Source: Balneola sp.
GTDB lineage: Bacteria > Bacteroidota > Rhodothermia > Balneolales > Balneolaceae
Direction: 5' to 3'
Length of the DNA: 64,000 nucleotides
Assembly: GCA_965222085.1 (NCBI GenBank)
Contig: OZ244952.1
Location: forward strand, 895,079-959,078
Position numbers and translations under genes: made by a program. Below, piece after piece: positions 39,940 to 64,000 of the stretch. The notes beneath the pieces were generated by a model. It had not been told where the DNA came from. It worked only from the letters and a program-made list of their open reading frames with translations, and ran no database searches. Each line of letters starts with the position of its first letter. The first letter of the stretch is position 1.

Positions 39940-39970
39940 GGAATTTGATATTTGTCATTTAAGACAAAAG

Positions 39971-40018
39971 TGGGCCCGGAGGGACTTAAACCCCCGACCA
40001 ATCGATTATGAGTCGACT
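39971..40018 (-). other. 3' fragment of a tRNA (anticodon CAU, Met/Ile2-type); candidate att junction
   Basis: Minus strand reads GTCGA-CTCATAA-TCGAT (anticodon arm), TGGTC, GGGGG-TTTAAGT-CCCTC (T arm; T-loop has T where C56 is expected), then CGGGCCC-A (acceptor 3' strand). No D arm or 5' acceptor strand lies upstream. Confidence 0.55.
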
Positions 40019-41243: not shown

Positions 41244-41246
41244 AGG

Positions 41247-41744: not shown

Positions 41745-42085
41745 AGTCGCGATGTTTCTAATTCAATACTTGGTTCCCGTAAGGTATCTCTTTTAAAGGC
41801 CGAAACTGTAATCGTATATAGATCCTGGTATTTGTCTACTTTGGTTTTGATCCACCAGTTTTCATCAATTTTAACGGTGTAAGAACTGTCTGACTCTGTA
41901 GCAATTACCTCTTCCATTTGATTTCTAGCATGATTGAAACTTACTATTTTATCTTTGGTTATGGTATTGCCTCCTATAAAAATAAGAAACATGGTAAGCG
42001 GAACCAGCACAACCAACAACAAAGAAAGTGCCACTAAAGATTCTACCAAACTGTATCCATCTTCTTCCCTAAATAGCTCTTTCAT
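41729..42085 (-). CDS. Prepilin-type N-terminal cleavage/methylation domain protein (minor pilin)
   Basis: EEDG|YSLVESLVALSLLLVVL, with Glu at +5. Confidence 0.8.
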   Translation of the reverse strand: MKELFREEDGYSLVESLVALSLLLVVLVPLTMFLIFIGGNTITKDKIVSFNHARNQMEEVIATESDSSYTVKIDENWWIKTKVDKYQDLYTITVSAFKRDTLREPSIELETSRLWYKD

Positions 42086-43404
42086 TCAGTAACCTCTTTC
42101 CAGTCCAGAATTACGTATTTGGTGGAATCTGAAAACCCAATCGGTACTATATAATCATGTGGGCGTTGGGTAATATCTATTTCAGCGTCCTTGATCCAAT
42201 TTATGTATGTAGTAGGTGATTCGTAAAAAAAGAACTGCTTGGTTAGTACCGCACCATATACCTTTCCGGCTAATTCTGTTTGACCCTGATTGTAAATACT
42301 CCCTCTTACCAAGGCATTTTCATCGATCTTGATCCTGAATTGTTCCCTATTAAACCTTCCTGTTTCGATAGGATATACGAGCGTTCCGTCAACGATGCTT
42401 TCATCTTGTAAGTGAATCACTTCTTGTTGCTCACCCAAAAACGTAGTAGTGGACGTATATACCAAACTAGGATAAGTCAGATACACCTGATCTCTGAGCT
42501 GAATTCTTCCTTTGGATATTAACTGAGCATTCATCGAAACCTGATCCTTCAATTCCAGATATGTTCCGGCACTTAGAATTGTGTGATTAGCAGTAACACT
42601 TCCTCCAATACTCAGGGTATCCTTAGCAATGAATGTCGTATATGTCCCTAAATTCCCCTCTCCGGTAATGGTTAGATTTCCTTCCACTAAGACCACAATA
42701 TCTTTTGGAATCGTATTTGTTTGATTTACACTCCATTCCTGAGAATCAGAAAAGTAAAGAGTATCACCTTCTTGCGACCGAGCCAGTTCGTTAAGATCTC
42801 GTATTACAAATTGACTCTTATTTTCTGACTCAAAAAAAGAAGTATGTCTAGCCATTTGAGCTTCCAAAGATTCATACTTAAAATCCGGAAAGAAATCTCG
42901 CATATTTTTCTTTTTGGCTTCGCCGTTAAAGCTCCCTCGAAATGGAAATCCTTTGAAAGTACTCCGTTCGATTTGATTATATCCTGAGGCTATATCTCCA
43001 TTAATAGTTGTAGTACCTGTCAAACTTAAAGATGAGTTGGTATCTTTAAGTGCAATGGCATAGTCGAATACAGAATCCGTAATTGCTCCTACAAGTACTT
43101 CTAATGTTATTTTCTGCTTTTTTACATGAGAGGATGATCTGATTTTTAAAAACCCGCCATAATTGGATGATGTGATAATTGTTGTTGAATCCGTTTCTCC
43201 TGGCGAATGTAAAAACTCATAGATCTGTTGCTCGGCTTGATACAAGGCTTTAGTCCGGTCAATGTCTTGTTGAATGAATGTGGATTGCACATAAATTCCT
43301 CCCAAAACAGCTCCAATAAAGAGAGTAACAATTAATGCTATTATTAGCACGGTAATAAGAGCTGAACCTTGTTCGTCTGATGCTATTTTTTGAAGTTGTT
43401 TCAC
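42082..43404 (-). CDS. Large pilus-associated protein with a PilX/GspK-like N-terminal anchor
   Basis: EQGSALITVLIIALIVTLFIGAVL lacks Glu+5. The rest (about 400 aa) is periodic and beta-helix-like (TINGDIASG, LTITGEGNLG, SIGGSVTANHTIL). Confidence 0.6.
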   Translation of the reverse strand: MKQLQKIASDEQGSALITVLIIALIVTLFIGAVLGGIYVQSTFIQQDIDRTKALYQAEQQIYEFLHSPGETDSTTIITSSNYGGFLKIRSSSHVKKQKITLEVLVGAITDSVFDYAIALKDTNSSLSLTGTTTINGDIASGYNQIERSTFKGFPFRGSFNGEAKKKNMRDFFPDFKYESLEAQMARHTSFFESENKSQFVIRDLNELARSQEGDTLYFSDSQEWSVNQTNTIPKDIVVLVEGNLTITGEGNLGTYTTFIAKDTLSIGGSVTANHTILSAGTYLELKDQVSMNAQLISKGRIQLRDQVYLTYPSLVYTSTTTFLGEQQEVIHLQDESIVDGTLVYPIETGRFNREQFRIKIDENALVRGSIYNQGQTELAGKVYGAVLTKQFFFYESPTTYINWIKDAEIDITQRPHDYIVPIGFSDSTKYVILDWKEVTE

Positions 43405-48648: not shown

Positions 48649-48667
48649 AAGGCGTCTCCTGTTTTTC

Positions 48668-51975: not shown

Positions 51976-52617
51976 CTATCCGTAAAAATTCCCGCCTTGT
52001 ACGTAATAATAAAACACAAACCCCATAAAGAGGAATGGGGCAAGAGGTAATTTAAAAGCTTTATTTAGTCTTTTGGTCAAAAGTCCTATCAGTGTAATTA
52101 CTCCAGAAATTATTATACCTATATAAATTACAATTAGTACTTCCAGACCTAAGAATAAAGACAATAGTACTATCAGTTTCACATCACCCCATCCAATAAT
52201 TTTTTTTGAGGTAAACTTTTTTCCGATCCAATAAATTACCAAAGAAGCCAAAATAACAGTAAGGAAAGCGTACGCTTTTTGGATCTCGAGTTCATACCAG
52301 AAGTTGATACCGGCAAGAATAAGTAAAATTAAAAGCAACTTGTTAGGGATAATTTTTGAATACCCATCTACCCAGGCAATGACGTAGAAAAGAAAAATAA
52401 ATGAGTAATTCACCCATTCGTTTGCACCAACAGGATCGATCATATAAATAAGTACGATTGATCCAAGAGTAGCAACAACACTACAGAGCTGCTTATGTTT
52501 GGTATTCGAAAGTGGGGTAATATTTTTGGAAAGAAGTTCCGGATAATAAAAGCTCAATAATGAGCCAATTATTCCAAATACAAGTCCTGCAAATATGACA
52601 AAAAGATGACTCACCAC
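51976..52617 (-). CDS. pilD: A24-family prepilin peptidase
   Basis: 213 aa, polytopic. The aspartate contexts are AWVDGYSKIIPN and GWGDVKL. Confidence 0.85.
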   Translation of the reverse strand: MVSHLFVIFAGLVFGIIGSLLSFYYPELLSKNITPLSNTKHKQLCSVVATLGSIVLIYMIDPVGANEWVNYSFIFLFYVIAWVDGYSKIIPNKLLLILLILAGINFWYELEIQKAYAFLTVILASLVIYWIGKKFTSKKIIGWGDVKLIVLLSLFLGLEVLIVIYIGIIISGVITLIGLLTKRLNKAFKLPLAPFLFMGFVFYYYVQGGNFYG

Positions 52618-53040
52618 TTAATCCGGGGTAACTTGCTCAACGATTCCATTTTCATCCACACTCCATTTATTAAAGATTCCGTCTCCATCGAAGTCAATAA
52701 TGGATGTAGCGGTAGCCGTATAAGATCTGGGCTCTGCCTCCTCAATTTCAATAATGTACCGAGCTTTACCTCCTTCGGTAATAAGCTTCTCTTGTTCAAA
52801 TCCAATCGCTTCGAAATTATCGGCGTAGACATCTTTCTCTAAGTGATAGGTCCGCTGAAGGGTATGCAAAAAGTTAAGCTGGGTTTTAGCTTCCGTTGTT
52901 TTAGCTCGGGTTGTTACATTTTGATACAATGGGACAGCTATCATAATCAGTATTCCAATAATAGCTAAGACTATAAGAAGTTCAGAGAGGGAGAACCCGT
53001 CTTCTTCTTCAATAATGGTTGTAAAGGTGTTCTTTTTCAT
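52618..53040 (-). CDS. Type IV pilin / pseudopilin (major subunit candidate)
   Basis: EEEDG|FSLSELLIVLAIIGILIMIAVPLYQN is a canonical class III signal with Phe+1 and Glu+5. Confidence 0.85.
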   Translation of the reverse strand: MKKNTFTTIIEEEDGFSLSELLIVLAIIGILIMIAVPLYQNVTTRAKTTEAKTQLNFLHTLQRTYHLEKDVYADNFEAIGFEQEKLITEGGKARYIIEIEEAEPRSYTATATSIIDFDGDGIFNKWSVDENGIVEQVTPD

Positions 53041-53045
53041 AAGGC

Positions 53046-53501
53046 TTATGATCTTACTTTTATTACAAAAGGTTTGTTTTCATGTTCAAAAATTACGGAG
53101 TCTTGAGTGATAGACTTGACTGTAATGCCGTTAAATACATCAGTTTCTTTTACCACAATAATACTTCGAGTAGCATCCAGTACCATAATAGTTTCATCCA
53201 TTACGCCAAGTACGGCTATACGAGGACGAATGTAGGGGTCAATCGGATTGGTTTCAGGGTTTTGCCGCTGAACCGGCTGTCTGTTTAACTCAAAAGGGTC
53301 TCTATTTGCCTGCTTATATGTAAATTGTTCTCTGCTAACTAAAGATAAATTGCTCAAATCAATATCATCTTGTTGTTGTTTGGCAACCTCTTCCTTGTTA
53401 CTTAATACTTCAGAGAACTGAACCGCGTTTACTCCCCATATCACTAAGACAATTCCAATTAATAAGACTCTTCCTACCGTTGTTTCCAGAAAGTCTTTCA
53501 T
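53046..53501 (-). CDS. PilP-like pilus assembly protein, tentative
   Basis: N-terminal TM segment plus a small C-terminal beta domain. The call rests on its position between the PilO-like and pilin genes. Confidence 0.4.
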   Translation of the reverse strand: MKDFLETTVGRVLLIGIVLVIWGVNAVQFSEVLSNKEEVAKQQQDDIDLSNLSLVSREQFTYKQANRDPFELNRQPVQRQNPETNPIDPYIRPRIAVLGVMDETIMVLDATRSIIVVKETDVFNGITVKSITQDSVIFEHENKPFVIKVRS

Positions 53502-54031
53502 AACTGCTCCCCGCTCAAAGCAAAAGACACCTCAAATGAACCACTTAACTCTTCGTTGTCTTTTTTTGTCAACTCAAAACGTTTGATTCTTGCAATGTAA
53601 GAGCTCTGTTCAATCTTATTAATAAACCCGGCAATTCCATTATAACTGCCCTTAAAGTCAATGGTCACACTTCGCTCCATTAACGATTCTTGCTTGCTTT
53701 TAAGAGGAGTTAGTTTTTGAATCTTGACATTGCTACGCCTGGAGGAAGTAAATAAATATTCAATAATGTCCGGGAAATCGTCAGCGGAAGGAATGACAGA
53801 TTCCGTCGTTCCTACATACCCTTCAAGAATTTCTTTTTGCCGTTGAAGCTCACTGAGTTGCCCCTTCCAGTCAGTCATATAAGCTATATTCTCCTTTTGT
53901 GACTTTAATGCCTGACCTCGTTCAAGCGTAGCAGTAAGGTACGGTAGAAGTAAAAATACAATACTGAGAAGGCATATTACCAGCACACTTCCCGTGGCTA
54001 TCTTCCAGCGATATTTCATTAAGCCGTTCAT
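53498..54031 (-). CDS. PilO-like pilus assembly protein
   Basis: 177 aa with an N-terminal TM segment, a coiled coil and a ferredoxin-like C-terminal domain. Overlapping start and stop codons with both neighbours. Confidence 0.55.
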   Translation of the reverse strand: MNGLMKYRWKIATGSVLVICLLSIVFLLLPYLTATLERGQALKSQKENIAYMTDWKGQLSELQRQKEILEGYVGTTESVIPSADDFPDIIEYLFTSSRRSNVKIQKLTPLKSKQESLMERSVTIDFKGSYNGIAGFINKIEQSSYIARIKRFELTKKDNEELSGSFEVSFALSGEQL

Positions 54032-55437
54032 TCTACTAATGCCTCCACCTCAATGGAAAATTCTGTACCCTGCCCGTTCTTTGAAAGACTTGAGCTTATT
54101 AGTACTGGGTTTTTGATCCACGGGTGAGAAGAAAGTCTCTTCATAAATGATGATATTGCTGTTTCTTCTTCAGCAGTTCCGGTTAGTATCACCTGAGCTT
54201 TTGATGGTTCCGATCTCATTGAAAGCGAGAGCTTATTAAGTGTAATCTTCTCACTGATTGTCTGATTTAAAGCGGTAAACACTTTAGCTGTGTTTGTCTC
54301 CCGTCCGGTAATTCCTTTGAATTCTTTATATACATTAAACAACTCATGTACCTCTGTTCGCTGCTGCTGAACAATACTTAACTTGTCATCAATTGCTTCC
54401 ATGACCTGAGAAGTTTCCTGAAGTTGATATTCAACCACTGAATTCCATACATAGCTACCTAAAAAGAATAGTGCTAGTGGTGCTACAAGTAATACCGCGG
54501 TTTTTTTGAATGTTAATTTGTCTTGCGTTTCATTAGCCTGTGCTTTAGCAGCATCAGATATACACTCAAATTGATCCAGTCCGGGGTATAATGATTTAAT
54601 TCCGGCTCCAATAGCAGTATTATATTTTTGAGAGAGTTCATCAAACTCTTTTCTTCCATCATGAGGAGTAATGGTTTGTACGTCCCGTTTCGAATACTCT
54701 GTTGAATTCACTACATCAGGAGCATACAATATAGTTGAGCCGGTCTCCAATTGATGCGTCAGTTCTTCGCTTTGTATAAAGCCGTGAGCCTGATCCAAAC
54801 AGTAAGCATTGTCCACGTCTTCAGCATTTTGGAAAGTATTAACCTGTTGTAGCATCCCATCTTTAAAGCTCAATAGAAAACACTTATGCTCTTTCTTATG
54901 TAATACCGAATGAAAGCCTTCCACAACTTCAGGGTTTAAAATGTTGCAATACCCGAATTCTGTCGTTCCTGTATAAAGATGATTTAGTGGAAGCTCTGCG
55001 CTTCTAAAAAATTCTTCTGAATGATCAGCTAGCTCCTTATCCACTAGCTGAAAAACAACTCGCCTTACATCTTCATCCAATTCAATTAAATGATCACAAA
55101 TGAGAACCTCTCCAACGGATTCTTTTAATAGCTGGTTCTTTCTGTTCTCAATCCAATGTTCTACTTCTTCAGGGGACTCAAAAAATGGAACCTCTTCCGA
55201 AACCACTTGTTTTAATAATGTCGAATGACTGAGCGTAACCGAGTAGATATCACCCTGAATGTGCTTCTTTAAATCTGCAAGAATTTGCTCTTTTTCTTGA
55301 GTTGATGTTACCCAAGGAAGTTCTCCAGTCTGGATAACCTTTATACGAGATCCTAGCTTACTTAATTCAACCCAAAGTAGTTGACCATCAATTATTTCGG
55401 CGCTTACTACTCTTTGTTCTATGAATGGAAGGTTCAT
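54028..55437 (-). CDS. PilM/PilN-like fusion (actin-like ATPase fold + TM + PilN-like domain), tentative
   Basis: 469 aa with a single TM segment near aa 315-335 (AVLLVAPLALFFLGSYVW). The call rests on its position between the secretin and PilO-like genes. Confidence 0.5.
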   Translation of the reverse strand: MNLPFIEQRVVSAEIIDGQLLWVELSKLGSRIKVIQTGELPWVTSTQEKEQILADLKKHIQGDIYSVTLSHSTLLKQVVSEEVPFFESPEEVEHWIENRKNQLLKESVGEVLICDHLIELDEDVRRVVFQLVDKELADHSEEFFRSAELPLNHLYTGTTEFGYCNILNPEVVEGFHSVLHKKEHKCFLLSFKDGMLQQVNTFQNAEDVDNAYCLDQAHGFIQSEELTHQLETGSTILYAPDVVNSTEYSKRDVQTITPHDGRKEFDELSQKYNTAIGAGIKSLYPGLDQFECISDAAKAQANETQDKLTFKKTAVLLVAPLALFFLGSYVWNSVVEYQLQETSQVMEAIDDKLSIVQQQRTEVHELFNVYKEFKGITGRETNTAKVFTALNQTISEKITLNKLSLSMRSEPSKAQVILTGTAEEETAISSFMKRLSSHPWIKNPVLISSSLSKNGQGTEFSIEVEALVE

Positions 55438-55440
55438 GGC

Positions 55441-57444
55441 TCAATTATCTATGCTCAGTTCCATCTTTTCCCGAAGTCTGAGCCAGCGATCATTGTCATT
55501 TTCATCACCGTAAAAGACATGAGGAGTAATAAAAATTACCAACTCTGACTTAGTCACACTCGTACTTTTATTTCTAAACAAACGACCAAGCAAAGGGATA
55601 TTTCCCAGAATTGGTACTTTATTGATGTTCTCTGTTTCTGCCTCCTGAATCAATCCACCCAAAATGATGGTTTCCCCATCTTTTAGTCGTACCGTAGAGT
55701 CAAGCACTCTGCGACTAATCGTTGGGGGTACATCAGCATTGAATTGACCAATTGGAGTATTAAATTCCGGATGAATTTCGGCCGTAACCTCTCCCGAGGC
55801 ACTCACCCAAGGGGTGATCTTAAGCAACACATTGGCTTCAATCTCTTCGAAGCGTTGCGTTTCTTGGGTTACAATTTGATTCGGTGATTGCAAAGGCGTT
55901 GTTGTTGTCAATAAGAAATACTGTGTGGTTCCCACTTCAATACTTGCTTCATACCCATTTAGTGTTGATATCTGTGGGCGTGATCGTATATTGATTAATC
56001 CTTCCTGATCAAGTGCTTGAATTCTGAAAAAGAAGTTACTGGGAAGTTTACCTAAATTTGCTATTCCAAACAGATTCCCCCCTGAGCTAAAGGCATTGTT
56101 AATATCATCTCCAGTTCCTTGAGCTCGAAGCCCACCGCTTTGATCCGTTCCTTGTCCGAAAAAAGCTGAAAATGGGTTGAAATTAGAACTGTCAGGCGCC
56201 GATCCTTGAGCAAGCGATAGTCCCAGTTGATACATATCAGAAGTTTGTACGTCAATGACTAACGCCTCGATCATTATTTGTGGGGTCGGATAATCCAACT
56301 CTAGTATAAAATTCTCCAGCTCAAGGATCACATCATTGGTACCGATGACCATCAACCCATTCTGCTCTTTTACTATTTGAATATTGGCATTTTGTTTGAT
56401 GGATTCCGGAATCAGATCAATAACCACATCCGAACGAATGTGTTCTAGCCGAACTAATTTTGTTGAAGCAATCCCACTGGTACCCTTATCTCCTATAATA
56501 TAAATATCCCCTTCTTTACGGTATGTAAACGAGGTGCCTCTGAACATATAATTCAGCGCTTGTTCTATGGTAAGGTTAGAGGTTTTAGCGGTGATTTGAC
56601 CCTGTGGTAATCCATAAGTAATCATACTAACATCCGTTTGGTAGCCAATCTCTCGTATGACATCCGTGATGTTTGCATTAACCACATCCATTGTGATCAA
56701 TCCATCTTGTACCTGTATCCAAAAAGTATCGCCTGAATTCTCTCCGGATTCTGAAGATCTGAAGCCAATACGATCAATCACAAATACCCCATCACTTTTG
56801 CGTAGCGAATATCCGTTGTTCTGAAGAATGGTATTTAACCCTTGTTCAAATTCGATATTCTGAAGAAATCCACTTATAGCACCTCTGACTCCATTTCGAA
56901 GAATGATGTTTTCTCCTGTTTGTTCAGAAAGACTTCGAACCAAAACCTGAAGGGAGGTTTCCTCCAAGTCAAGGGTTAGCAATCCGTTTTCAAAAAGGAT
57001 AACCGGTTCGTGTGACTCTTGAACCACAGGTTCAGGTTGATAAGAACTTACACGAAATACACTCCCGTTTTGCTTTAACTGCATCTCATATTCTTGAACA
57101 ATAAAAATAAGAACTTCAATAACCGGGATATCTGCGAAGCGAACAGTCACCGGTTGTTGCAGATTCTCTGAAACAACCAGATTGATGTTATACTGAATGG
57201 AAAGTGCTCTGAGAAAATCCCTTGCCGGAATGCTGTTTATATTCAGGTTTTCAGCTTCTTGCAAAAGTGGGGCTGGAAGGTTATTGAGCTCAATTTCAAC
57301 CCGTTGGGTATCTATAATAGAAGCAAGGTACTCTGAATAAGTTGAATCCTGAACAGCTCTATTTACCCTAAGACTATCTTGAGCTGTTGCTTGTGTGGTT
57401 GCAAAAATAAAAAGCGTTAAAAAATATAAGTATCGTATTCTCAT
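55441..57444 (-). CDS. pilQ: Secretin (PilQ/GspD family)
   Basis: C-terminal secretin domain with VPILGNIPLLGRLFR and SELVIFITPHV. Signal peptide starts at ATG 57444 (MRIRYLYFLTLFIFATTQATAQ); the ORF track starts at 57510. Confidence 0.88.
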   Translation of the reverse strand: MRIRYLYFLTLFIFATTQATAQDSLRVNRAVQDSTYSEYLASIIDTQRVEIELNNLPAPLLQEAENLNINSIPARDFLRALSIQYNINLVVSENLQQPVTVRFADIPVIEVLIFIVQEYEMQLKQNGSVFRVSSYQPEPVVQESHEPVILFENGLLTLDLEETSLQVLVRSLSEQTGENIILRNGVRGAISGFLQNIEFEQGLNTILQNNGYSLRKSDGVFVIDRIGFRSSESGENSGDTFWIQVQDGLITMDVVNANITDVIREIGYQTDVSMITYGLPQGQITAKTSNLTIEQALNYMFRGTSFTYRKEGDIYIIGDKGTSGIASTKLVRLEHIRSDVVIDLIPESIKQNANIQIVKEQNGLMVIGTNDVILELENFILELDYPTPQIMIEALVIDVQTSDMYQLGLSLAQGSAPDSSNFNPFSAFFGQGTDQSGGLRAQGTGDDINNAFSSGGNLFGIANLGKLPSNFFFRIQALDQEGLINIRSRPQISTLNGYEASIEVGTTQYFLLTTTTPLQSPNQIVTQETQRFEEIEANVLLKITPWVSASGEVTAEIHPEFNTPIGQFNADVPPTISRRVLDSTVRLKDGETIILGGLIQEAETENINKVPILGNIPLLGRLFRNKSTSVTKSELVIFITPHVFYGDENDNDRWLRLREKMELSIDN

Positions 57445-57506
57445 GAATTGCATTAGTGATGTTACTCCGCAGAATACATAAATAAAAATGAAGTTACATC
57501 CCTTGC

Positions 57507-58673
57507 TCAAAGCATGGTTTCCCTGTACACTTCTTCCACCGATGTAAGCCCTTTACGTATTTTTTGGATTCCTACATCTCTAAGAGTACGCATACCTTGT
57601 TTTGTTGCAATTAATTTTATTTCAGATGAATTAGCAGAGGTATTTATGTGAGAGGTAAGTTCATCACTCATGGTAAGAAGTTCAATAAGTGCCGTTCTTC
57701 CTTTAAATCCAGACTGGTTACATTCGGAGCACCCTGCACCTTGTTTGAACTCGTTATGGTCTTCCAACCCAAGTTCTTTCACCAGGACTGAATCAGGTTC
57801 ATAGTTTGTCTTACAATGCTCACAAATCTTCCGAACGAGGCGTTGTGCCATCACCATTCTAACAGAAGAAGAAACAAGAAATGGCTCTACCCCCATTTCT
57901 ACCAACCGTGATACCGCGGATGACGCATCATTCGTATGTAGAGTGGAAAAGACAAGATGCCCAGTAAGTGCCGCTCTTATTGCAATTTCCACTGTTTCCT
58001 TATCTCTTATTTCACCAACCATAATGATGTTTGGATCCTGTCGGAGAATAGAACGGAGAATATTCACGAACGTCAGATCAATCTCTTCATGGACCTGAGT
58101 CTGGTTAATTCCTTCTAGATTGTACTCAATAGGATCTTCAATGGTTGTGATGTTTACTTCTTCGGAATTGATTTCGTTTAGAGCAGAGTACAACGTTGTA
58201 GTTTTCCCGGAACCAGTTGGACCCGTCACCAAAATCATTCCATAGGGATTATTGATCTCTTTTCTAAAAGCACTTAGCACCTCCTCTGAAAACCCCAGCG
58301 ATTCTAGACTTAATTGGAGGCTACCTTTATCCAAAATTCTAAGTACAATCTTTTCTCCATATTGAGTAGGTAGGGTTGAAACTCTCAAATCAATATCCTG
58401 ACCTTGTTTCGCGCGTATTTTTATGCGCCCATCTTGAGGTCTTCTTTTTTCGGCAATATCTAACTCAGCCATAATTTTCAATCTGGAAGTAATCGCATCC
58501 TTCTGCGACAATTGTAGTTCAGTAATTTCCTGAAGAACTCCATCAATTCTAAATCGAAGCCGATACTTCTTTTCAAAAGGCTCCAAATGAATATCACTGG
58601 CACCGACTTCAATTGCGGATTGAATGATTTGATCTACTTGGGTTATGACTGAGCCGGAGAATTGTTTTTGCAT
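57507..58673 (-). CDS. pilB: GspE/PilB-family secretion ATPase (short form, no N-terminal GSPII_E_N domain)
   Basis: Walker A GPTGSGKTT, Asp box, Walker B IIMVGEIRD, His box TGHLVFSTLHTN, and tetracysteine CEHC...CSEC. Confidence 0.93.
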   Translation of the reverse strand: MQKQFSGSVITQVDQIIQSAIEVGASDIHLEPFEKKYRLRFRIDGVLQEITELQLSQKDAITSRLKIMAELDIAEKRRPQDGRIKIRAKQGQDIDLRVSTLPTQYGEKIVLRILDKGSLQLSLESLGFSEEVLSAFRKEINNPYGMILVTGPTGSGKTTTLYSALNEINSEEVNITTIEDPIEYNLEGINQTQVHEEIDLTFVNILRSILRQDPNIIMVGEIRDKETVEIAIRAALTGHLVFSTLHTNDASSAVSRLVEMGVEPFLVSSSVRMVMAQRLVRKICEHCKTNYEPDSVLVKELGLEDHNEFKQGAGCSECNQSGFKGRTALIELLTMSDELTSHINTSANSSEIKLIATKQGMRTLRDVGIQKIRKGLTSVEEVYRETML

Positions 58674-58900: not shown

Positions 58901-61900
58901 TCATCTCCTTTCATACTCACCAATCTCTTTTTGAAGATCGTATACATTCAGAGAAAACATTTTGTCCAAAAAATCGAGACACTTGGATTTCTTATTATCA
59001 TCAGTTGTTCTAGAATAGGCTCTTAATATCAATTTACTCAATTCTGATTCTGCTAATGAATACCTTGAAGCATTATTTGAAACTTTCTCATCTTCAATTT
59101 TTTCAAAAAACTTGGTTGCCATATAGATTGTTTCATCAATCAAATCAATAGAACAATCCTTTAACTTATATATCAAATCATCATGTTTCTCTGGATATGA
59201 GATACTGTCACAATAATCATAGATCAGATTTCTATTCTCATCCAATGTTCTATCGTCAAGCTCTCTGAAACAATATGATGCTTGACTTCTGACCTCATCT
59301 TCAATGTCATTAAATAGAAGTGAAAGTTGTTCGGCACATTCTTTTTGAAATTCCCCAAATTGTAGATTCTTTGAATATATCTGTGCTGCAGCAACTCTTT
59401 GATTTTTGCTTCCATTAATACATTTCAATGCTAATTCATGAGCATTGGAGTTTGATAAAGCTGACAAGCAAATTTGTCTAGCTCCCATAAGCTGTGTTCG
59501 ATCAAAAACTGAATCGATCATTAATTCCAAAATTTGCTCAACTTCATTGTAGTGAGTCCTGTAAATAACATAAATAAACCGTTCTACCTCTGAAACAGTA
59601 AGTAAAATCTTATCTGACTCAATTATCTTCAAAAACAAATCTACTGCTAAGTCACGATTAAAGTTGGTCATAATTCTTAGTACGGTTATTACACAACTCT
59701 TAACAGATGGAGATGGATCTGAAATCAATTCTTCTATTGTTGGTTTTAAATACTCAAATCGCTTATTATCAGCATAAATTAAATGAGCCAAAGCTTCGGT
59801 TGCCGTTCCTCTCACTGAGTTTATTCCAATTGTATGAAGCTCATCGTATTCTTTTTCTACACCAGAACTTAAAACTTCTGTTTTTGCATCTCTCTCAGTA
59901 GTTGGATCGTTGCTATTTAATGCATACCAAGAAACAATGTCTAAAACTTCACCCGAAAATTCCTTTTTAGAATGTTTAAGTACTACGTATGCAATTTCTT
60001 TCCCAAACAATTTATCAGGATGATTATGACAATAATTTAGAATGCTTTCAATCTGTTTAATACTAATAAGATGTTCGGTATCTCCAATACCTCTTAAAAT
60101 ACTTTCTAAGTAAGCTTCATTTGAAGAATATGAAATGTGTAATCCTAACTTAGCAAATCGAACTGGGTCCTTAGTAACTTGTTTCTGTAGTATGTGTGAC
60201 AATTCTCTTGCTCCACCGCTCTCCCTAAATCTATTAGTTTCCCTTCTCTCCAGATCATATTTTTTAATCGCATTCAACCAATTCTCATCAGACATTTGTT
60301 CAGCTTGATTTGCTCTAACTGGAGACTCTACGGCAGAGACTAAGGGTTCGTTTACTTTATGAGAAGGTATCGGTTTTTTTGTTTTGAATTTCCTTTCAAA
60401 TTCTTGGATTTTTTTCTTGGTAATTGAGGAAATTCGTGAGCTATCTAAAGAAGAAAGTAGCCTGAATTGCTCAATTCCAAAACGAGATAATATTGATCTA
60501 TCTAAAGATGGTTGATAATAATTTTTATCAAAATAAATTGCTGGATAATAAGATTGTAATAAGCTTTCGATCTTAAGGAAATGTTTATTAGAACAATGTC
60601 CTGCGACTACTTTCAAAAGATCTGCTGCAATACAGCTTCTACCCCTACTATCCGAAAGATTGAGTAAACTAGGGTTTTCAATAAGATAGGAAATTGCTTC
60701 ATCTGACTTTGCTTTACCAGAATATTGAAACGCTTTTAAAAGCAATGCATTAACATTTGCATATTTGGTGCCTTTTAGCCTAGATATTAATTCATCAGCT
60801 TTGGATGGATCCTTTTCAAGAATGAGTCTAAGAGACTCCTCTAGTCCATTTAAAATTTTACTGGGATAATCAGAAAATGAATTGTACCGATACCATACCT
60901 TATCTCGAATCTGATTTTCATCATAGATACTTACATTTTCCTTGTCTTCCGTATTATTCTCTATACATCTTAAAAAGAAGGGGTAAATATTTTCAAAGTA
61001 TACCTCTGGAGCTTCTTCGGTAATTGTTTTAAAGAATTCTGTATCTCCCCTAGCTCTATATTTATCAATTAATGATATGAAAGGTGAATTCTCTCCAATT
61101 TTAATACTCTCATCTAATACAAAATTCAAATACGCACCGAGAGCTTGACATGCCCATGCCGGGTTTTTCTTTGGTAACCCATAAGTTAGATCATGAAACT
61201 TTAACCTTTCATTTTCTAAGTTAAAAATTTCTGTATCAGTAACAAGTTCGATAAAAAGATTCAAAAATTTAGCTGAATCATTTGTATCCCAATTCCTGCC
61301 AATTAAATTCAGAATTCTTTTTTTCGTTTCGATTCGATGTAAGTCTAGTCCAGATAGAATATCCACTACACGATCTGGCTCAAGTTCCTTATAACTGTAT
61401 AACAAATAGAATACTTCATCAACAAGTGATGTATTTGGTGAATTCAGCCAATTGGTTAAATGTCCTGATTTATCCGAAAATCTGATCCACTTGGGGCTAC
61501 CTTTTATTAGATGCCAAATATTTGCACTTTCAATTTCATTACCTGTTTTAGGTATCAGGCACTCACTAATAATATCCCATTCTTCCTTAGTTGGAAGATC
61601 TATTTCTCTCAAAAAAGCGTAGATGATATGCTGGAGATGGGTTCTGATTTTTTGACTTGAAAGGAAGATCTTTAACTCCGTTAAATATCTTTTAAAGTCG
61701 CTTTCTCTAAGGTTTATGAATAACTGTCTTACCTGAACTCTTCTAAATAAATGTTGTTCACTTGAAAGTATCAACTGTGTAATACTTTTTTGACCGTCTG
61801 AAAGAAATTTTCGCGAAAAAGCATAATCGAAAAAGGTTTCGTGAAAGAAAGCATATCTATCATTTTCTATCATAAGAACATGCTCACTTACCAGAACATC

Positions 61901-63484
61901 TTGCTCTGAATCATATGCATCTAATATATATTTAGGGGCATTTAATGTCTGGTTTTCACTCATATAATCAACTATTCTGTAGATTATACTAGACCACCTG
62001 ATATTTTTATTAGTTCGATTGTTAACATCCTGTTGTTTAGATATCCAGTACTTCTCCAATAAATCTTGGGTAGTTCGAAAATCGAACTTACCAACCTTTT
62101 CATCATAGATTTCAAAAAATAATTTTAAGTTGATAGGGAGAGATAGTAGGGATAATTCTAATTCTGAAAATGTATTCGCTGGAATTCCATGTTCAAATAA
62201 AAACTCTGTTAATTTATTTGTATCAATCCTATTTAATTTTAGAGTTTTTAAATACTTTTTCTCTGAAAGCTGCTTTAATCTCCTATCATTCTCTACATCA
62301 AAATTTCTACATGCCAAGAGTATTTTAATTTCAGATTTAAATCTATAAATGCAGTTATCAATTAACTCATAAATACAATCGAATAACTGAGGCAGCCTAC
62401 CAGATGCTAAGCTTACCGCATCAAGCTGATCTATAATCAATACTCCTTTTTTACCTACAGAAATGCCATCTAAAGCCACTTCAGGAGAATATTTAATACC
62501 TAGCCGTTCTCCTATTTTTTGAGGAGTGATATCCCCTGAGTCAAGATTATCCACTCTAAATACCAAACTCGGGATTCTTTGCTCGTTAATCTTATCTATT
62601 ACCTCATATAATACACCGGATTTCCCACTTCCAGCTTCTCCTGTAATAAGTACTCCTTTTAGATTCTGGTCATTTAATGCATCAATTATTTCATCGCTTT
62701 CATTTCTCTTAATGAACTTATCTGGTATTAATCTGTATTCGATATTCCTTACATATCTTTCATTGTTCTCATTTATACGACTAATTAAGGATGTATTTTT
62801 AGCAAGGTTAAGCCGTTCAAAGCCTTTCTCCTCAAGATAATTCCATAATTCAAATGCTGTAATATTACGATTCAAATTTTCCTTTATAAACCACACTAAT
62901 TCACTTCTAACCTTCTCCGGCTCACCATCGATTAACTTCGCAATTAAAAAAAGAATCTGTTTATTCAAATCAGATTCAACTCTAGGTAATACTTCTATAC
63001 AGCTTAAAAAAGCAAATACTTTTTCCTGATTTTCATTTAATGAAAGCATAAAAAGTAAATCATTATATGCTGAGCTTAATGGTTTACTAGTTAGAAAATC
63101 CTCTTTAAAACTCTCGACATTTTCAGATGACCTTGCTCTTTCAGATAATTCTCTTAAATCAGGAACATCCTGAATTGAAACAAAGATGCATTTACAAGTT
63201 TGATCCTGATTAAATTTATTGAAGAAGTGGCTAATTACTGACTTTGACCCAAGAGAGCTGATTGTCCATTTGTCAGATTTTGTCTGTTGACGCTTAGATT
63301 GGTAGTACTCTTTATACCCATTTTTAAATAAAATAAGCTCTACTCCTACTCCCTCTGGACCAGGTGGTTCGATTTGAATTGCCTCGGCTTTCTCATCAAG
63401 TAGCTCTATTAGACAGAGAATAGTCCAAAGATCTTCGTATCTATCCCCAAGCTTCGCACTTGTTCCTCCTGATAATGGCATCAA
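58901..63484 (-). CDS. Large STAND-type P-loop NTPase with an N-terminal PD-(D/E)xK-like domain and a helical-repeat C-terminus (Avs/NLR-like defence candidate)
   Basis: 1527-aa ORF. Walker A is ITGEAGSGKS (aa 282-289, nt 62618-62641) and Walker B is VLIIDQLD (aa 348-355, nt 62420-62443). The N-terminus carries GGTSAKLGDRYEDLW...VGVELILFKNGYKEYYQSKRQ. The sequence after aa ~400 is long, Leu/Ile/Glu/Lys-rich and has no catalytic motif. Confidence 0.7.
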   Translation of the reverse strand: MMPLSGGTSAKLGDRYEDLWTILCLIELLDEKAEAIQIEPPGPEGVGVELILFKNGYKEYYQSKRQQTKSDKWTISSLGSKSVISHFFNKFNQDQTCKCIFVSIQDVPDLRELSERARSSENVESFKEDFLTSKPLSSAYNDLLFMLSLNENQEKVFAFLSCIEVLPRVESDLNKQILFLIAKLIDGEPEKVRSELVWFIKENLNRNITAFELWNYLEEKGFERLNLAKNTSLISRINENNERYVRNIEYRLIPDKFIKRNESDEIIDALNDQNLKGVLITGEAGSGKSGVLYEVIDKINEQRIPSLVFRVDNLDSGDITPQKIGERLGIKYSPEVALDGISVGKKGVLIIDQLDAVSLASGRLPQLFDCIYELIDNCIYRFKSEIKILLACRNFDVENDRRLKQLSEKKYLKTLKLNRIDTNKLTEFLFEHGIPANTFSELELSLLSLPINLKLFFEIYDEKVGKFDFRTTQDLLEKYWISKQQDVNNRTNKNIRWSSIIYRIVDYMSENQTLNAPKYILDAYDSEQDVLVSEHVLMIENDRYAFFHETFFDYAFSRKFLSDGQKSITQLILSSEQHLFRRVQVRQLFINLRESDFKRYLTELKIFLSSQKIRTHLQHIIYAFLREIDLPTKEEWDIISECLIPKTGNEIESANIWHLIKGSPKWIRFSDKSGHLTNWLNSPNTSLVDEVFYLLYSYKELEPDRVVDILSGLDLHRIETKKRILNLIGRNWDTNDSAKFLNLFIELVTDTEIFNLENERLKFHDLTYGLPKKNPAWACQALGAYLNFVLDESIKIGENSPFISLIDKYRARGDTEFFKTITEEAPEVYFENIYPFFLRCIENNTEDKENVSIYDENQIRDKVWYRYNSFSDYPSKILNGLEESLRLILEKDPSKADELISRLKGTKYANVNALLLKAFQYSGKAKSDEAISYLIENPSLLNLSDSRGRSCIAADLLKVVAGHCSNKHFLKIESLLQSYYPAIYFDKNYYQPSLDRSILSRFGIEQFRLLSSLDSSRISSITKKKIQEFERKFKTKKPIPSHKVNEPLVSAVESPVRANQAEQMSDENWLNAIKKYDLERRETNRFRESGGARELSHILQKQVTKDPVRFAKLGLHISYSSNEAYLESILRGIGDTEHLISIKQIESILNYCHNHPDKLFGKEIAYVVLKHSKKEFSGEVLDIVSWYALNSNDPTTERDAKTEVLSSGVEKEYDELHTIGINSVRGTATEALAHLIYADNKRFEYLKPTIEELISDPSPSVKSCVITVLRIMTNFNRDLAVDLFLKIIESDKILLTVSEVERFIYVIYRTHYNEVEQILELMIDSVFDRTQLMGARQICLSALSNSNAHELALKCINGSKNQRVAAAQIYSKNLQFGEFQKECAEQLSLLFNDIEDEVRSQASYCFRELDDRTLDENRNLIYDYCDSISYPEKHDDLIYKLKDCSIDLIDETIYMATKFFEKIEDEKVSNNASRYSLAESELSKLILRAYSRTTDDNKKSKCLDFLDKMFSLNVYDLQKEIGEYERR

Positions 63485-63611: not shown

Positions 63612-64000
63612 TCAAGCCTCTAGCTCCCACATTGCTCTTCCATTGTTATCAGTTTTATCTTTTCTCATGATAAAACTATTATCATTCATACCTTTTTCTG
63701 TTATCATTGCTACCTTTTGATCGTAGGTATACAGCTTTACTTTCTCACGGTTTAAATCATTTCGTATTGTTCTTGGATAGTTGAAGAACGATAACGGGTT
63801 TTCTCTTAGATATGGTTTTTCATTTTTATAATACTCTGCTCTGGACCTATTAGACATAGCTTTCATTAACTGATCTACAGAAAACTCTTCCATAGCAGTT
63901 TTAATAATATTTTCTAAGTTAGGATCATTACTATTTAAACTATCTCCAAATAGTTTATTCCAATAGCTACAAATTTTAATATAATTTTCATCAGAAATAG
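63612..64000 (-). CDS. Phage-type protein with a 'conserved phage C-terminus'-like domain; 5' end is outside the window
   Basis: The frame stays open upstream of the listed ATG to the window edge (ISDENYIKICSYWNKLFGDSLNSNDPNLENIIKTAMEEFSVDQLMKAMSNRS...KPYLRENPLSFFNYP). The pattern resembles the Phg_2220_C/DnaD-like family (Y.N...G..., YLRP.TLF). Confidence 0.45.
   Translation of the reverse strand, partial: ISDENYIKICSYWNKLFGDSLNSNDPNLENIIKTAMEEFSVDQLMKAMSNRSRAEYYKNEKPYLRENPLSFFNYPRTIRNDLNREKVKLYTYDQKVAMITEKGMNDNSFIMRKDKTDNNGRAMWELEA

What the first reader, a model, noticed from the sequence alone, without database searches (positions are those of the whole stretch)
58901..63484. Single-gene Avs/NLR-like system: PD-(D/E)xK-like domain + STAND NTPase + >1100-aa helical repeat
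Seen in sequence: one uninterrupted 1527-aa ORF with Walker A GEAGSGKS (K288) and Walker B VLIIDQLD about 60 aa apart. It has its own 227-bp downstream and 127-bp upstream non-coding flanks. The first ~120 aa carry GG-x-SAKLGDRYEDLW followed by VGV-E49-LILFKNG-x5-YQ62-S-K64. Inference: that spacing looks like the E...QxK core of DUF4297/Cap4-type restriction-endonuclease-fold effectors. The remaining ~1100 aa are helical-repeat-like (HEAT/ARM/TPR style) with no enzymatic motif. Established knowledge: effector, STAND ATPase and repeat sensor in that order is the architecture of antiviral STAND (Avs) and bacterial NLR-like proteins, which sense phage proteins through the repeat domain. The gene sits in an apparent island next to a phage-type gene and a polymorphic toxin locus, which is a typical defence-island context. 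I do not recognise the C-terminal sensor region as any described Avs family, so this may be a new clade or sensor specificity.
Basis: partly seen in the sequence, partly recalled or inferred. Interest (0 to 1): 0.85.

Follow-up and report, generated by a model that had tools for sequence, protein, structure and literature searches.

The report
Avs7-like antiphage STAND nuclease gene
One 1,526-residue gene on a mobile island of a Balneola-like bacterium encodes a phage-sensing immune protein (DNA-cutting Cap4 domain, NLR-type ATP switch, large helical sensor) that is a distant full-length relative of the recently solved Salmonella Avs7, so it is a new member of a known defence family and not a new kind of system.

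Summary
An intact ORF lies at 58901-63484 (-), with the likely start at ATG 63481 (1,526 aa). It has the stated Walker A/B motifs, flanks and N-terminal motifs.

The N-domain is a Cap4/DUF4297 PD-(D/E)xK nuclease, the middle is a STAND (NLR-type) NTPase, and the remaining ~890 aa form an all-helical HEAT/TPR-like sensor.

The sensor is not an undescribed type. A profile of the protein's family matches Salmonella enterica Avs7 (PDB 9N00/9N01/9YIX; Lee et al., Nature 2026) at E=1e-61. The match is collinear from residue 6 to the last residues. SeAvs7 binds the phage major capsid protein, tetramerises with ATP and cuts DNA with its Cap4 domain.

The window protein keeps every NTPase and nuclease residue that is invariant across its own family. 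It shares only about 17-22% identity with SeAvs7, so its trigger (capsid protein or other) is inferred, not shown.

In a near-identical strain the gene follows tRNA-Met, an integrase and a RepO-like gene. A 49-nt tRNA repeat at window 39970-40018 marks the other end of a ~27.6-kb island. The adjacent downstream gene is a T2SS/type IV pilus ATPase, not a phage gene.

Verdict: new member of a known kind; modest interest.

The parts
58901..63481 (-). Complete CDS of the Avs7-like protein (1,526 aa from ATG 63481; stop codon 58901-58903; the mechanical ORF starts one codon earlier at TTG 63484)
   Evidence: The identical protein P0001 is in public collections.
62807..63481 (-). Cap4/DUF4297-type PD-(D/E)xK nuclease effector domain, aa 1-~225. 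Alpha1 carries Y15-E16, the beta strands carry E38, E48 and Q61-x-K63, and a helical subdomain follows.
   Evidence: Family invariants G12 E16 W19 E48 K63, with E38 and Q61 nearly invariant. Homologues P0024 and P0108 pass the Pfam Cap4_nuclease gathering score over aa 5-180 and 5-202. hhalign aligns the domain from residue 6 with the Cap4 domain of the SeAvs7 clade. The AF2 secondary structure is H7-28, E34-37, E49-53, E56-63, H74-92, E97-102.
63293..63379 (-). Putative nuclease active-site residues: E38 (in IQIEPP), E48 (in GVELIL) and Q61-S-K63 (in YQSK)
   Evidence: They correspond to the invariant E36, D45/D46 and Q60-x-K62 of the SeAvs7 clade.
61562..62713 (-). STAND NTPase module (NBD, helical domain, winged helix), aa ~257-640
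   Evidence: phmmer against SeAvs7: aa 262-668 match 267-659, E=2e-11 for that stretch. PADLOC PDC-M54A covers aa 257-583. The top Foldseek hits are EcAvs4, NLRP3, NLRC4, NLRP9, EfAvs5 and SAMD9.
62618..62641 (-). Walker A GEAGSGKS (aa 281-288; K287)
   Evidence: G286 and K287 are invariant. The motif aligns with GSGKT of the SeAvs7 clade.
62420..62443 (-). Walker B VLIIDQLD (aa 347-354; D351 and D354 invariant), followed by SLASGR with the invariant R362
62297..62314 (-). ACRNFD, with the invariant sensor-1 arginine R392 (aligned to ACRDFD of the SeAvs7 clade; SeAvs7 Arg395 contacts ATP)
   Evidence: PMC13581612
61823..61849 (-). FFHETFFDY in the winged-helix domain, with the invariant H547 (aligned to the FGHQTLLD histidine of the SeAvs7 clade; His545 in SeAvs7)
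60377..61561 (-). Sensor N-lobe, helical repeats, aa ~641-1035
   Evidence: AF2 model, all helices. hhalign aligns it with the SeAvs7-clade N-lobe up to query aa 1017.
60305..60376 (-). Conserved non-helical hinge between the sensor lobes (aa 1036-1059, KPIPSHKVNEPLVSAVESPVRANQ). The break point of the naturally split two-gene variants, read from protein lengths and not from an alignment, falls near here.
   Evidence: The AF2 model has no helix at model residues 393-416, and pLDDT is below 50 at 401-409. Split variant L084: a 1056-aa ORF followed by a 439-aa ORF.
58904..60313 (-). Sensor C-lobe, HEAT-like repeats, aa ~1057-1526, ending in a short terminal helix (aa 1516-1525)
   Evidence: The family profile matches SeAvs7 957-1522 (E=4e-19). 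The sensor-only profile matches SeAvs7 980-1374 (E=4e-20). HEAT hits are sub-threshold. The terminal helix is H876-885 of the model.
63612..64000 (-). 3' part of the upstream gene, cut by the window end. It corresponds to the 275-aa Phage_rep_O gene of the 97%-identical strain.
   Evidence: This 128-aa fragment itself gives no Pfam or PHROG hit.
39970..40018 (-). 49-nt direct repeat (1 mismatch) of the 3' part of tRNA-Met(CAT). Candidate attR of a ~27.6-kb island that contains the gene.
   Evidence: (0 matches expected by chance)

Best explanation
The gene encodes a single-protein antiviral STAND immune receptor of the Avs7 type, carried on a tRNA-Met-integrated genomic island of a Balneola-like bacterium.

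Proposed mechanism, by homology with SeAvs7. In uninfected cells the protein is an autoinhibited, ADP-bound monomer, and the sensor C-lobe and the NTPase hold the Cap4 domain inactive. During infection the two helical lobes of the ~890-aa sensor clamp around a newly made phage structural protein, most likely the HK97-fold major capsid protein. This releases ADP. ATP binding (K287, D351, R392, H547) then drives oligomerisation, probably into a tetramer, which assembles the N-terminal Cap4 PD-(D/E)xK domains (E38, E48, Q61-x-K63) into an active dsDNA nuclease. DNA is degraded and the infection is aborted.

Shown here: the domain architecture, the conservation of catalytic residues, full-length homology to SeAvs7, and the mobile and patchy distribution. 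Inferred: the defence activity of this particular protein, the identity of its trigger, its oligomeric state, and whether EF-Tu takes part.
For: (1) Among all PDB sequences the only significant match is SeAvs7 (9n00/9n01/9yix). The single sequence gives E=2.8e-18 and the family profile gives E=1.2e-61, covering profile positions 55-663 and 962-1502 against SeAvs7 54-659 and 957-1522. The sensor-only profile gives E=4e-20.
(2) hhalign of the family against 24 SeAvs7-clade sequences gives probability 100% and E=7e-49 over 935 aligned columns, query 6-1017 against template 22-1029. Together with (1) this means collinear homology from the N-terminus to the C-terminus. The total lengths are also nearly the same (1526 vs 1523 aa).
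(3) Residues aligned with the functional residues of SeAvs7 are invariant in the window family: K287, D351, R362, R392 and H547 (residues named in the paper).
(4) The N-domain is a Cap4 domain. Homologues pass the Pfam PF14130 gathering score and 4 of 26 N-domains hit it on their own. The model shows an alpha-beta-beta-beta-alpha-beta core, and E16/E48/K63 are invariant.
(5) The NTPase fold is closest to EcAvs4 (E=4e-14) and then to NLRP3, NLRC4, NLRP9, EfAvs5 and SAMD9.
(6) SeAvs7 has been shown experimentally to defend against phages, to be triggered by the capsid protein, to tetramerise and to cut dsDNA through Cap4 (PMC13581612).
(7) The distribution is patchy across Cyanobacteria, Acidobacteriota, Chloroflexota, Planctomycetota, Desulfobacterota and archaea. 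No neighbouring gene is conserved: at most 4 of 146 neighbours share a family. Neighbours include LmuB, type IIG RM, NERD+UvrD, DrmMI, HTH proteins and transposases. The closest homologue (69% identity) lies between an MmeI-type RM gene and an RT, PIN/RHH and Mrr genes. Plasmid copies lie next to integrases, DUF262 and ThiF/multiubiquitin genes.
(8) The gene lies on an island bounded by tRNA-Met plus an integrase and by a 49-nt att repeat. Its G+C content is 0.327 against 0.373 for the whole window.
Against: Identity to SeAvs7 is low: 22% by BLASTP, and only over the NTPase/WHD, and 17% over the hhalign columns. The capsid-binding surface therefore cannot be assumed to be conserved.

Only SeAvs7, and none of Avs8 or Avs10-24, has a PDB entry. 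A closer relationship to one of those families could not be excluded here.

The window protein itself gives no Pfam Cap4 hit. It matches only the NTPase/WHD part of the PADLOC candidate model PDC-M54A, and no other PADLOC model at E<=1.

9N00 is absent from the Foldseek library. The sensor model therefore hit only generic HEAT/ARM solenoids (CAND1, importins, condensin) at TM 0.2-0.3, and the 'bilobed' shape was not verified.

The two SeAvs7 residues mutated at the EF-Tu domain II interface (Q999, D1003) read as K and Q here. This is a by-eye reading of the alignment. According to the paper, EF-Tu use is confined to 192 of 1,757 Avs7 homologues.

No experiment exists for this protein or its clade.
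Confidence: 0.78

Rival explanations
1. The machine is the same (Cap4-STAND-helical sensor, abortive DNA cleavage), but the clade is a sister family of Avs7 whose sensor recognises a different conserved phage protein (portal, tail or replication protein) or works without any host cofactor.
For: Identity to SeAvs7 is only 17-22%. The sensor N-lobe (about aa 665-960) is not matched to the SeAvs7 chain by HMMER and aligns only profile-to-profile. The paper describes about 90 structurally distinct Avs sensor families and 13 further families with other triggers, none of which has a PDB entry to compare with. The EF-Tu contact residues do not appear to be conserved (by eye).
Against: Sensor-only sequence homology to the SeAvs7 sensor is strong (E=4e-20) and extends to the last residues, including the short terminal helix. 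According to the paper, even the very distant Dsr1 version of this sensor still senses the capsid protein, so the target appears to be conserved across the sensor superfamily.
Confidence: 0.17
2. It is a non-immune STAND signalling or housekeeping ATPase (for example a regulator) that merely shares the fold.
For: Many STAND clades are not defence-related. The adjacent genes in the window are a pilus/secretion operon. Pfam P-loop hits on the window protein are all below threshold.
Against: The protein has an N-terminal Cap4 nuclease with conserved catalytic residues. The closest characterised relative is a proven defence protein. The gene has no conserved neighbours and a patchy phyletic spread that includes plasmids and archaea. 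It is island cargo next to an integrase. The neighbouring pilus operon is not conserved next to homologues.
Confidence: 0.03
3. The gene is a decaying or inactive copy, an evolutionary remnant on an old island.
For: There is a few-percent divergence between strains in the region, and gene content next to the gene varies. Split or frameshifted copies exist elsewhere, for example L002 with 638 + 872 aa.
Against: The ORF is uninterrupted over 4.6 kb. It carries every residue that is invariant in the family (the window protein is the first row of the alignments A2 and A6). A cluster-mate at >=90% identity (P0121) has the same length in another strain.
Confidence: 0.02

Closest known systems
Avs7 (Salmonella enterica SeAvs7; PDB 9N00 apo, 9N01 monomeric complex, 9YIX tetramer; Lee et al., Nature 2026, PMC13581612)
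   Same: The architecture and size are the same: a Cap4 nuclease, a STAND NTPase/WHD and a two-lobed helical sensor (1526 vs 1523 aa). Sequence-profile homology is collinear from residue 6 to the C-terminus. The residues aligned with the P-loop Lys, Walker B Asp, Arg367, Arg395 and His545 of SeAvs7 are conserved. There is a short C-terminal helix. The gene is a single-gene system, is horizontally mobile, and occurs in split two-gene variants in both clades.
   Different: Identity is only about 17-22%. The nuclease motif has acidic E16, E38 and E48 where the SeAvs7 clade has Q15, E36 and D45/D46. The C-lobe scores as HEAT-like. The EF-Tu interface residues are apparently not conserved. The host is a Balneola-like bacterium, and the bulk of the clade is cyanobacterial, Chloroflexota or Acidobacteriota and not enterobacterial. 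Neither the trigger nor the defence activity has been tested.
Avs3 (SeAvs3, PDB 8DGC) and Avs4 (EcAvs4, PDB 8DGF), Gao et al. 2022
   Same: These are single-protein Avs receptors with an N-terminal nuclease (Cap4 in SeAvs3; Mrr-like in Avs4 from my own knowledge), a STAND NTPase and a helical sensor. They assemble tetramers on binding a phage protein. EcAvs4 is the best Foldseek hit of the N-terminal half (E=4e-14).
   Different: The family profile shows no sequence-level match to either. Their sensors are unrelated and their triggers are different (terminase, portal).
Cap4 (CBASS effector; Pfam PF14130 Cap4_nuclease/DUF4297)
   Same: The nuclease domain family is the same: a GG-x5-G-x2-Y-(E/Q) N-terminal helix, acidic residues on the beta strands and a QxK motif. 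Homologues pass the Pfam threshold.
   Different: In CBASS the domain is switched on by a cyclic oligonucleotide through a SAVED domain (my own knowledge). Here it is fused to a STAND NTPase and would be switched on by protein-triggered oligomerisation.
PADLOC candidate system PDC-M54 (gene A); an unpublished candidate from the PADLOC authors
   Same: It is the only PADLOC family hit (E=4.9e-22 and 2.7e-20). The models are of similar length (1621-1657 positions).
   Different: Only the NTPase/WHD part (aa 257-583) matches. Papers that use PADLOC describe the PDC systems in general as unpublished candidates, and PDC-M54 itself is named in no paper of the library. Its relation to Avs7 was not established here.
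Dsr1 (defence-associated sirtuin 1)
   Same: According to the paper it carries the same sensor superfamily as Avs7 and also senses the capsid protein.
   Different: It has no STAND NTPase and has a SIR2 effector. No Dsr1 model was hit by the window protein in PADLOC, and the link was not tested at profile level.

Membership tests
Avs7 (antiviral STAND family 7) | STAND NTPase with P-loop Lys, Walker B Asp, sensor-1 Arg and winged-helix His aligned with those of SeAvs7 | tested here: met
   K287, D351, R392 and H547 are invariant in the family and align with the corresponding SeAvs7-clade residues. Against SeAvs7 267-659, phmmer gives E=2e-11 for that stretch and the family profile gives E=1e-37.
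Avs7 (antiviral STAND family 7) | C-terminal sensor homologous to the Avs7 sensor (both lobes) | tested here: met
   C-lobe: the family profile matches SeAvs7 957-1522 at E=4e-19, and the sensor-only profile matches 980-1374 at E=4e-20. N-lobe: hhalign runs continuously to query aa 1017 and template 1029. This is sequence-profile evidence only.
Avs7 (antiviral STAND family 7) | Sharply bent, bilobed three-dimensional shape of the sensor | tested here: inconclusive
   The AF2 sensor model is confident (pLDDT 86.8, pTM 0.67) and all-helical, with a non-helical hinge at aa ~1036-1059. Coordinates could not be inspected, and 9N00 is not in the Foldseek PDB copy. Only generic HEAT solenoids were hit.
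Avs7 (antiviral STAND family 7) | Short C-terminal helix of conserved length (SeAvs7 1511-1521) | tested here: met
   The model has a terminal helix at aa 1516-1525 of 1526. The profile alignment reaches SeAvs7 residue 1522 of 1523. The feature is described in PMC13581612.
Avs7 (antiviral STAND family 7) | Activation by the phage major capsid protein; anti-phage defence | not testable with these tools
   This needs co-expression or plaque assays, or AlphaFold3 co-folding.
Avs7 (antiviral STAND family 7) | EF-Tu as a structural cofactor (only a sub-clade of 192 of 1,757 homologues according to the paper) | tested here: inconclusive
   The positions aligned to SeAvs7 Q999 and D1003 read as K and Q in the window protein (by eye). 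This feature does not define the family.
Avs7 (antiviral STAND family 7) | Listed among the 3,272 curated Avs7 homologues (Table S7 of the paper) | not testable with these tools
   The held supplementary tables are truncated. WP_016953846.1 (P0024, a full-length homologue) was not found in the held text.
Cap4 nuclease domain (Pfam PF14130 / DUF4297) | Match to the Pfam model above the gathering score | tested here: inconclusive
   The window protein's own N-domain gives no PF14130 hit. Its full-length homologues P0024 (27.1 bits) and P0108 (35.9 bits) exceed the 26.2-bit cut-off over aa 5-180 and 5-202. 4 of 26 N-domains hit it on their own. Membership therefore holds at the family level.
Cap4 nuclease domain (Pfam PF14130 / DUF4297) | PD-(D/E)xK core fold and catalytic acidic plus (Q/E)xK residues | tested here: met
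   The AF2 model shows an alpha-beta-beta-beta-alpha-beta order at pLDDT >90. E16, E48 and K63 are invariant, and E38 and Q61 are at least 90% conserved. They align with E36, D45/D46 and Q60-x-K62 of the SeAvs7-clade Cap4 domain.
STAND / NLR-type NTPases (as opposed to classical AAA+) | NBD-HD-WHD fold closest to NLR or Avs proteins | tested here: met
   Foldseek: EcAvs4 4e-14; the NLRP3 NACHT domain 4e-9 (TM-score 0.56-0.59 normalised to the target); then NLRC4, NLRP9, NOD2, EfAvs5 and SAMD9. ORC/Cdc6 and classical AAA+ proteins rank lower.
PADLOC PDC-M54 | Full-length match to the PDC-M54A model, and the partner genes of the candidate system | tested here: not met
   Only aa 257-583 match. 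No partner gene is conserved next to homologues.
tRNA-integrated genomic island | Integrase next to a tRNA gene, and a direct repeat of the tRNA 3' end at the far boundary | tested here: met
   tRNA-Met and the integrase are seen in the 97%-identical strain L085, beyond the window end. The 49-nt repeat lies at window 39970-40018, with 0 matches expected by chance.

The most novel reading that the evidence does not exclude
This divergent clade is centred on Cyanobacteria, Chloroflexota and Acidobacteriota and has a low-G+C Balneola branch. It may have retuned the Avs7-type two-lobed sensor to a phage protein other than the HK97 capsid protein, or to capsids of phages of non-enteric hosts without EF-Tu. 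The recurrent natural split at the inter-lobe hinge may show that the C-lobe can work as a separate subunit.
Probability: 0.2. Interest if true: 0.45.

Novelty: new member of a known kind. Interest (0 to 1): 0.3.

Why it matters
It extends a just-characterised immune receptor family (Avs7) to Balneolaceae. It also documents a large, distant Cap4-bearing clade (about 1,800 clusters at 50% identity for the sensor) that shares only about 20% identity with the solved Salmonella protein and yet keeps the residues aligned with SeAvs7's functional NTPase residues and a matching Cap4 active-site motif. That makes it a useful natural test of how far capsid-protein recognition and the tetramer-activated Cap4 mechanism are conserved. 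It is also a clean example of a defence gene riding as cargo next to the integrase of a tRNA-Met island. It does not reveal a new kind of system.

Tried and rejected
(1) The Foldseek search of the sensor model was meant to test similarity to the SeAvs7 structure. 9N00/9N01/9YIX are not in the Foldseek PDB copy (releases up to 2026-04-08), so only generic HEAT/ARM solenoids came back. This says nothing about family placement.

I worked around this by aligning the window fragment with whole database proteins.

(3) I looked for accession WP_016953846 and for 'PDC-M54' in the paper's supplements and in the literature. The tables are truncated and nothing was found.

(4) I checked whether shorter hits to the sensor (about 990-1190 aa) are different architectures (Dsr1-like, without an NTPase). 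The 19 I read all begin inside the NTPase/WHD, at or before FFHExFFDY, so they look like N-terminally truncated gene calls and not new architectures.

(5) The Herpetosiphon plasmid homologue seemed to have a different effector, because tblastn matched only aa 256-1526. Its N-terminus is in fact a more canonical Cap4-like sequence (GG-x5-G-x2-YQ ... IQAK). No effector swap was shown there.

(6) Sigma-70 promoter and terminator scans found no more sites than in shuffled sequence. Local repeats around the gene are at chance level. No tRNA lies inside the window. No exact match of 10 nt or more links the tRNA-integrase region of L085 to the intergenic region just downstream of the gene, so the small integrase-RepO-Avs module has no boundary of its own that I could see.

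(7) Pfam and PHROGs searches of the upstream partial ORF and of the 941-aa ORF next to Rhs found nothing.

(8) An exact look-up of the window protein and of the neighbouring ATPase in the contig index found nothing. The cluster-mate P0121 gave the context instead.

(9) The neighbourhood test was only semi-quantitative: 146 nearest ORFs of 37 loci, with counts per family and no background statistic.

Full report
OBSERVATION. The window has one uninterrupted ORF at 58901..63484 on the minus strand (1527 codons from a TTG). Its second codon is ATG (63481), and all homologues begin MPLxGG, so the product is almost certainly 1,526 aa. Walker A GEAGSGKS is at aa 281-288 and Walker B VLIIDQLD at aa 347-354. 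The non-coding flanks are 227 bp downstream and 127 bp upstream, as stated.

WHAT THE PARTS ARE. Library scans of the protein alone say little. Pfam gives only sub-threshold P-loop/STAND hits (nSTAND_NTPase5, NACHT, AAA_16) and HEAT hits. NCBIfam gives nothing meaningful. PADLOC gives only the unpublished candidate PDC-M54A, over aa 257-583. The isolated N-domain gives no Pfam hit.

The protein nevertheless belongs to a large, full-length-conserved family. A word-indexed search found 301 proteins, most of them about 1,500 aa long at 27-35% identity and 100% coverage. A scan of species-representative genomes confirmed 510 matches. A phmmer search with the sensor alone found 1,808 clusters (at 50% identity) at E<=1e-3 and 659 at E<=1e-30. 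Invariant residues are spread along the whole alignment.

In the N-domain, G12, E16, W19, E48 and K63 are invariant, and E38 and Q61 are at least 90% conserved. Two full-length homologues (P0024 from Anabaena sp. PCC 7108, and P0108) pass the Pfam gathering score for Cap4_nuclease (PF14130, formerly DUF4297) over aa 5-180 and 5-202. Four of 26 N-domains hit that model on their own. An AF2 model of aa 1-670 (pLDDT 90.9, pTM 0.86) shows the alpha-beta-beta-beta-alpha-beta order of a PD-(D/E)xK core. E16 lies on helix 1, and E38, E48 and Q61-x-K63 lie at or on the three strands.

The best structural neighbours of that model in the PDB are EcAvs4 (E=4e-14), followed by the NACHT modules of NLRP3, NLRC4, NLRP9 and NOD2, then EfAvs5 and SAMD9. 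Classical AAA+ proteins and ORC/Cdc6 rank below them. The NTPase is therefore STAND/NLR-type.

The AF2 model of aa 641-1526 (pLDDT 86.8) is entirely helical. It has a conserved non-helical hinge at about aa 1036-1059. Its nearest PDB folds are generic HEAT/ARM solenoids.

THE KEY RELATIVE. A search of PDB sequences found a single real match, a 1,523-aa 'AAA family ATPase' (9n00, 9n01, 9yix). These entries are Salmonella enterica Avs7 (Lee et al., bioRxiv January 2026 and Nature July 2026). The window protein alone matches it at E=2.8e-18 (aa 262-668 against 267-659, and aa 1217-1319 against 1200-1304). A profile of 33 family members matches it at E=1.2e-61 in two collinear stretches: 55-663 against 54-659, and 962-1502 against 957-1522. 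A sensor-only profile matches SeAvs7 980-1374 at E=4e-20.

To cover the N-terminus and the sensor N-lobe, I retrieved SeAvs7-clade proteins using the SeAvs7 segment printed. I then compared the two family profiles. hhalign gives probability 100% and E=7e-49 over 935 aligned columns, from query residue 6 to 1017. Homology therefore runs from the first helix of the nuclease to the last residues of the sensor, in proteins of practically the same length.

The residues the paper names as functional in SeAvs7 are the P-loop Thr291/Lys292, Asp358, Arg367, Arg395 and His545. In the hhalign alignment the matching motifs of the SeAvs7 clade (GSGKT, IDSLD, SIA--R, ACRDFD, FGHQ) align with K287/S288, D351, R362, R392 and H547 here, and all five positions are invariant in the window family. 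The SeAvs7-clade Cap4 invariants Y14-Q15, E36, D45/D46 and Q60-x-K62 correspond to Y15-E16, E38, E48 and Q61-x-K63. The short C-terminal helix, which the paper reports as conserved in length across Avs7, is present at aa 1516-1525. No other Avs structure in the PDB (Avs3, Avs4, Avs5) is matched at the sequence level.

HOW IT MOST LIKELY WORKS. For SeAvs7 the paper shows the following. The resting state is an autoinhibited, ADP-bound monomer. The two sensor lobes clamp around a newly synthesised HK97-fold major capsid protein, and in SeAvs7 this is strengthened by host EF-Tu. ATP-dependent assembly then gives an asymmetric tetramer. In that tetramer the Cap4 domains form an active dsDNA nuclease, and defence and toxicity are lost when Cap4 is inactivated.

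The window protein shares the same domain order and keeps invariant residues at the positions aligned with SeAvs7's functional NTPase residues, together with a matching Cap4 active-site motif. I therefore propose the same chain of events for it. The architecture and the conservation are shown here. The defence activity, the trigger, the stoichiometry and any use of EF-Tu are inferred.

The trigger is the weakest step. Identity to SeAvs7 is only about 17-22%. The positions aligned to two EF-Tu contact residues differ (read by eye). EF-Tu use is in any case confined to a sub-clade. Other numbered Avs families with different triggers have no PDB entry to compare with. In favour of the capsid protein, even the far more distant Dsr1 version of this sensor senses it.

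CONTEXT. Housekeeping genes place the window in a Balneola-like bacterium (Balneolaceae). The tricorn-type protease at 28613-31765 is 89-90% identical to proteins named as Balneola sp..

The genes at 57507-51976 encode a T2SSE ATPase, a secretin, PilN, PilO, a pilin and a prepilin peptidase. A T2SSF gene and a pseudopilin gene lie at 40113-41744. An Rhs/DUF6443 locus at 44311-51493 lies between them.

A strain whose Avs7-like protein falls in the same >=90% identity cluster (L085; 97% DNA identity over 6.5 kb) shows what lies beyond the window end. There, tRNA-Met(CAT), a tyrosine integrase, three small ORFs and a Phage_rep_O gene come immediately before the Avs7-like gene. The 3' part of the Phage_rep_O gene is the window ORF 63612-64000. 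The window carries, at 39970-40018, a 49-nt direct repeat (one mismatch) of the 3' part of that tRNA, where none is expected by chance. The gene is thus cargo at the integrase-proximal end of a ~27.6-kb tRNA-Met island that also holds the pilus/secretion genes and the Rhs locus. Its G+C content is 0.327 against 0.373 for the window.

Elsewhere the family has no fixed neighbours. Among 146 nearest ORFs in 37 loci, no family occurs more than four times. The recurrent ones are defence or mobility genes: LmuB/SMC-like ATPases, type IIG RM, NERD+UvrD, DrmMI, HTH regulators and transposases. The closest homologue (69% identity) sits between an MmeI-type RM gene and RT/HTH, PIN-RHH and Mrr genes. Plasmid copies are flanked by integrases, a DUF262 gene with a helicase gene, or a ThiF/multiubiquitin module. 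The phyletic spread is patchy and includes archaea. All of this fits a horizontally mobile single-gene defence system.

COMPARISON AND NOVELTY. The protein works like an Avs7 and, on every sequence-level criterion I could test, is one. Its effector, Cap4, is the same as that of SeAvs7. Three things could not be tested: the three-dimensional bilobed shape against the solved structure, the curated membership list, and the trigger. The clade is distant from the characterised representative and is numerically large, and its nuclease motif differs slightly (E for Q/D). These are differences of degree. I rate it a new member of a known kind.

VERDICT. The feature is real and correctly read as an Avs-type single-gene defence protein. 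It is now explained by the Avs7 family. Interest is modest (0.3). The main open point is whether this distant clade still senses the capsid protein.

Noticed in passing
window 39970-40018 (- strand), with L085 5856-5930: A 49-nt direct repeat (1 mismatch) of the anticodon-stem-to-3'-end part of tRNA-Met(CAT). In a 97%-identical strain the full tRNA and a tyrosine integrase lie just beyond the window end. This defines a ~27.6-kb integrated island (window ~39970 to ~67550 by extrapolation).
   Followed up: yes
window 40113-43404 and 51976-58673 (- strand): The island carries a T2SS/type IV pilus-like gene set: T2SSF and a pseudopilin with an N-methyl motif; then prepilin peptidase, a pilin with a weak ComP_DUS hit, PilO, PilN, a secretin and the T2SSE ATPase. 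An Rhs toxin locus splits the set into two blocks. A filament or secretion system as island cargo next to an Rhs toxin may deserve its own look.
   Followed up: partly
window 44311-51493 (- strand): An Rhs/DUF6443 protein (1473 aa) is preceded by a 941-aa ORF that overlaps it by 65 nt and has no Pfam or PHROG hit. G+C falls to 0.316 at 50-52 kb.
   Followed up: partly
L085 16033-19662 versus window ~57510: The related strain has four extra ORFs (425, 100, 457 and 219 aa, no Pfam hits) inserted between the T2SSE ATPase and the secretin. They are absent from the window, where the two genes abut. DNA identity drops from 97% to 93% across this point.
   Followed up: no
L084 6001-10480; proteins P0093, P0098-P0100, P0103, P0110, P0113, P0119; also P0130, P0138, P0139, P0143: Natural two-gene variants recur. 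A protein of ~1030-1060 aa (Cap4 + NTPase + sensor N-lobe) is followed in L084 by an overlapping 439-aa HEAT ORF (the C-lobe). The same length class occurs in the SeAvs7 clade. By protein length the break falls near the inter-lobe hinge (window aa ~1036-1059).
   Followed up: partly
L083 (contig carrying P0002, the 69%-identical homologue): The closest relative sits in a classical defence island with entirely different neighbours from the window: an MmeI-type IIG RM gene, an RT (RVT_1) with an HTH gene, PIN/RHH, Mrr_cat and a beta-CASP MBL nuclease.
   Followed up: partly
L022 (Methanothrix sp. MAG), L045 (Euryarchaeota MAG): Full-length homologues at 32-33% identity occur in archaeal MAGs, which implies transfer of this Avs7-like clade between domains (or contamination of the bins).
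   Followed up: no
L002 10001-14545: In one deltaproteobacterial MAG the homologue is broken into 638-aa and 872-aa ORFs with a 9-nt gap. This may be a frameshift or pseudogene, or another split form. The break is at the WHD-sensor border, not at the hinge.
   Followed up: no
plasmid hits H6, H9-H12 (Nostoc, Tolypothrix): Only the NTPase part (aa ~250-709) matches plasmid genes annotated as SEFIR-domain, caspase-family or pentapeptide-repeat proteins. Related STAND modules are thus combined with other effectors and sensors in cyanobacteria.
   Followed up: no
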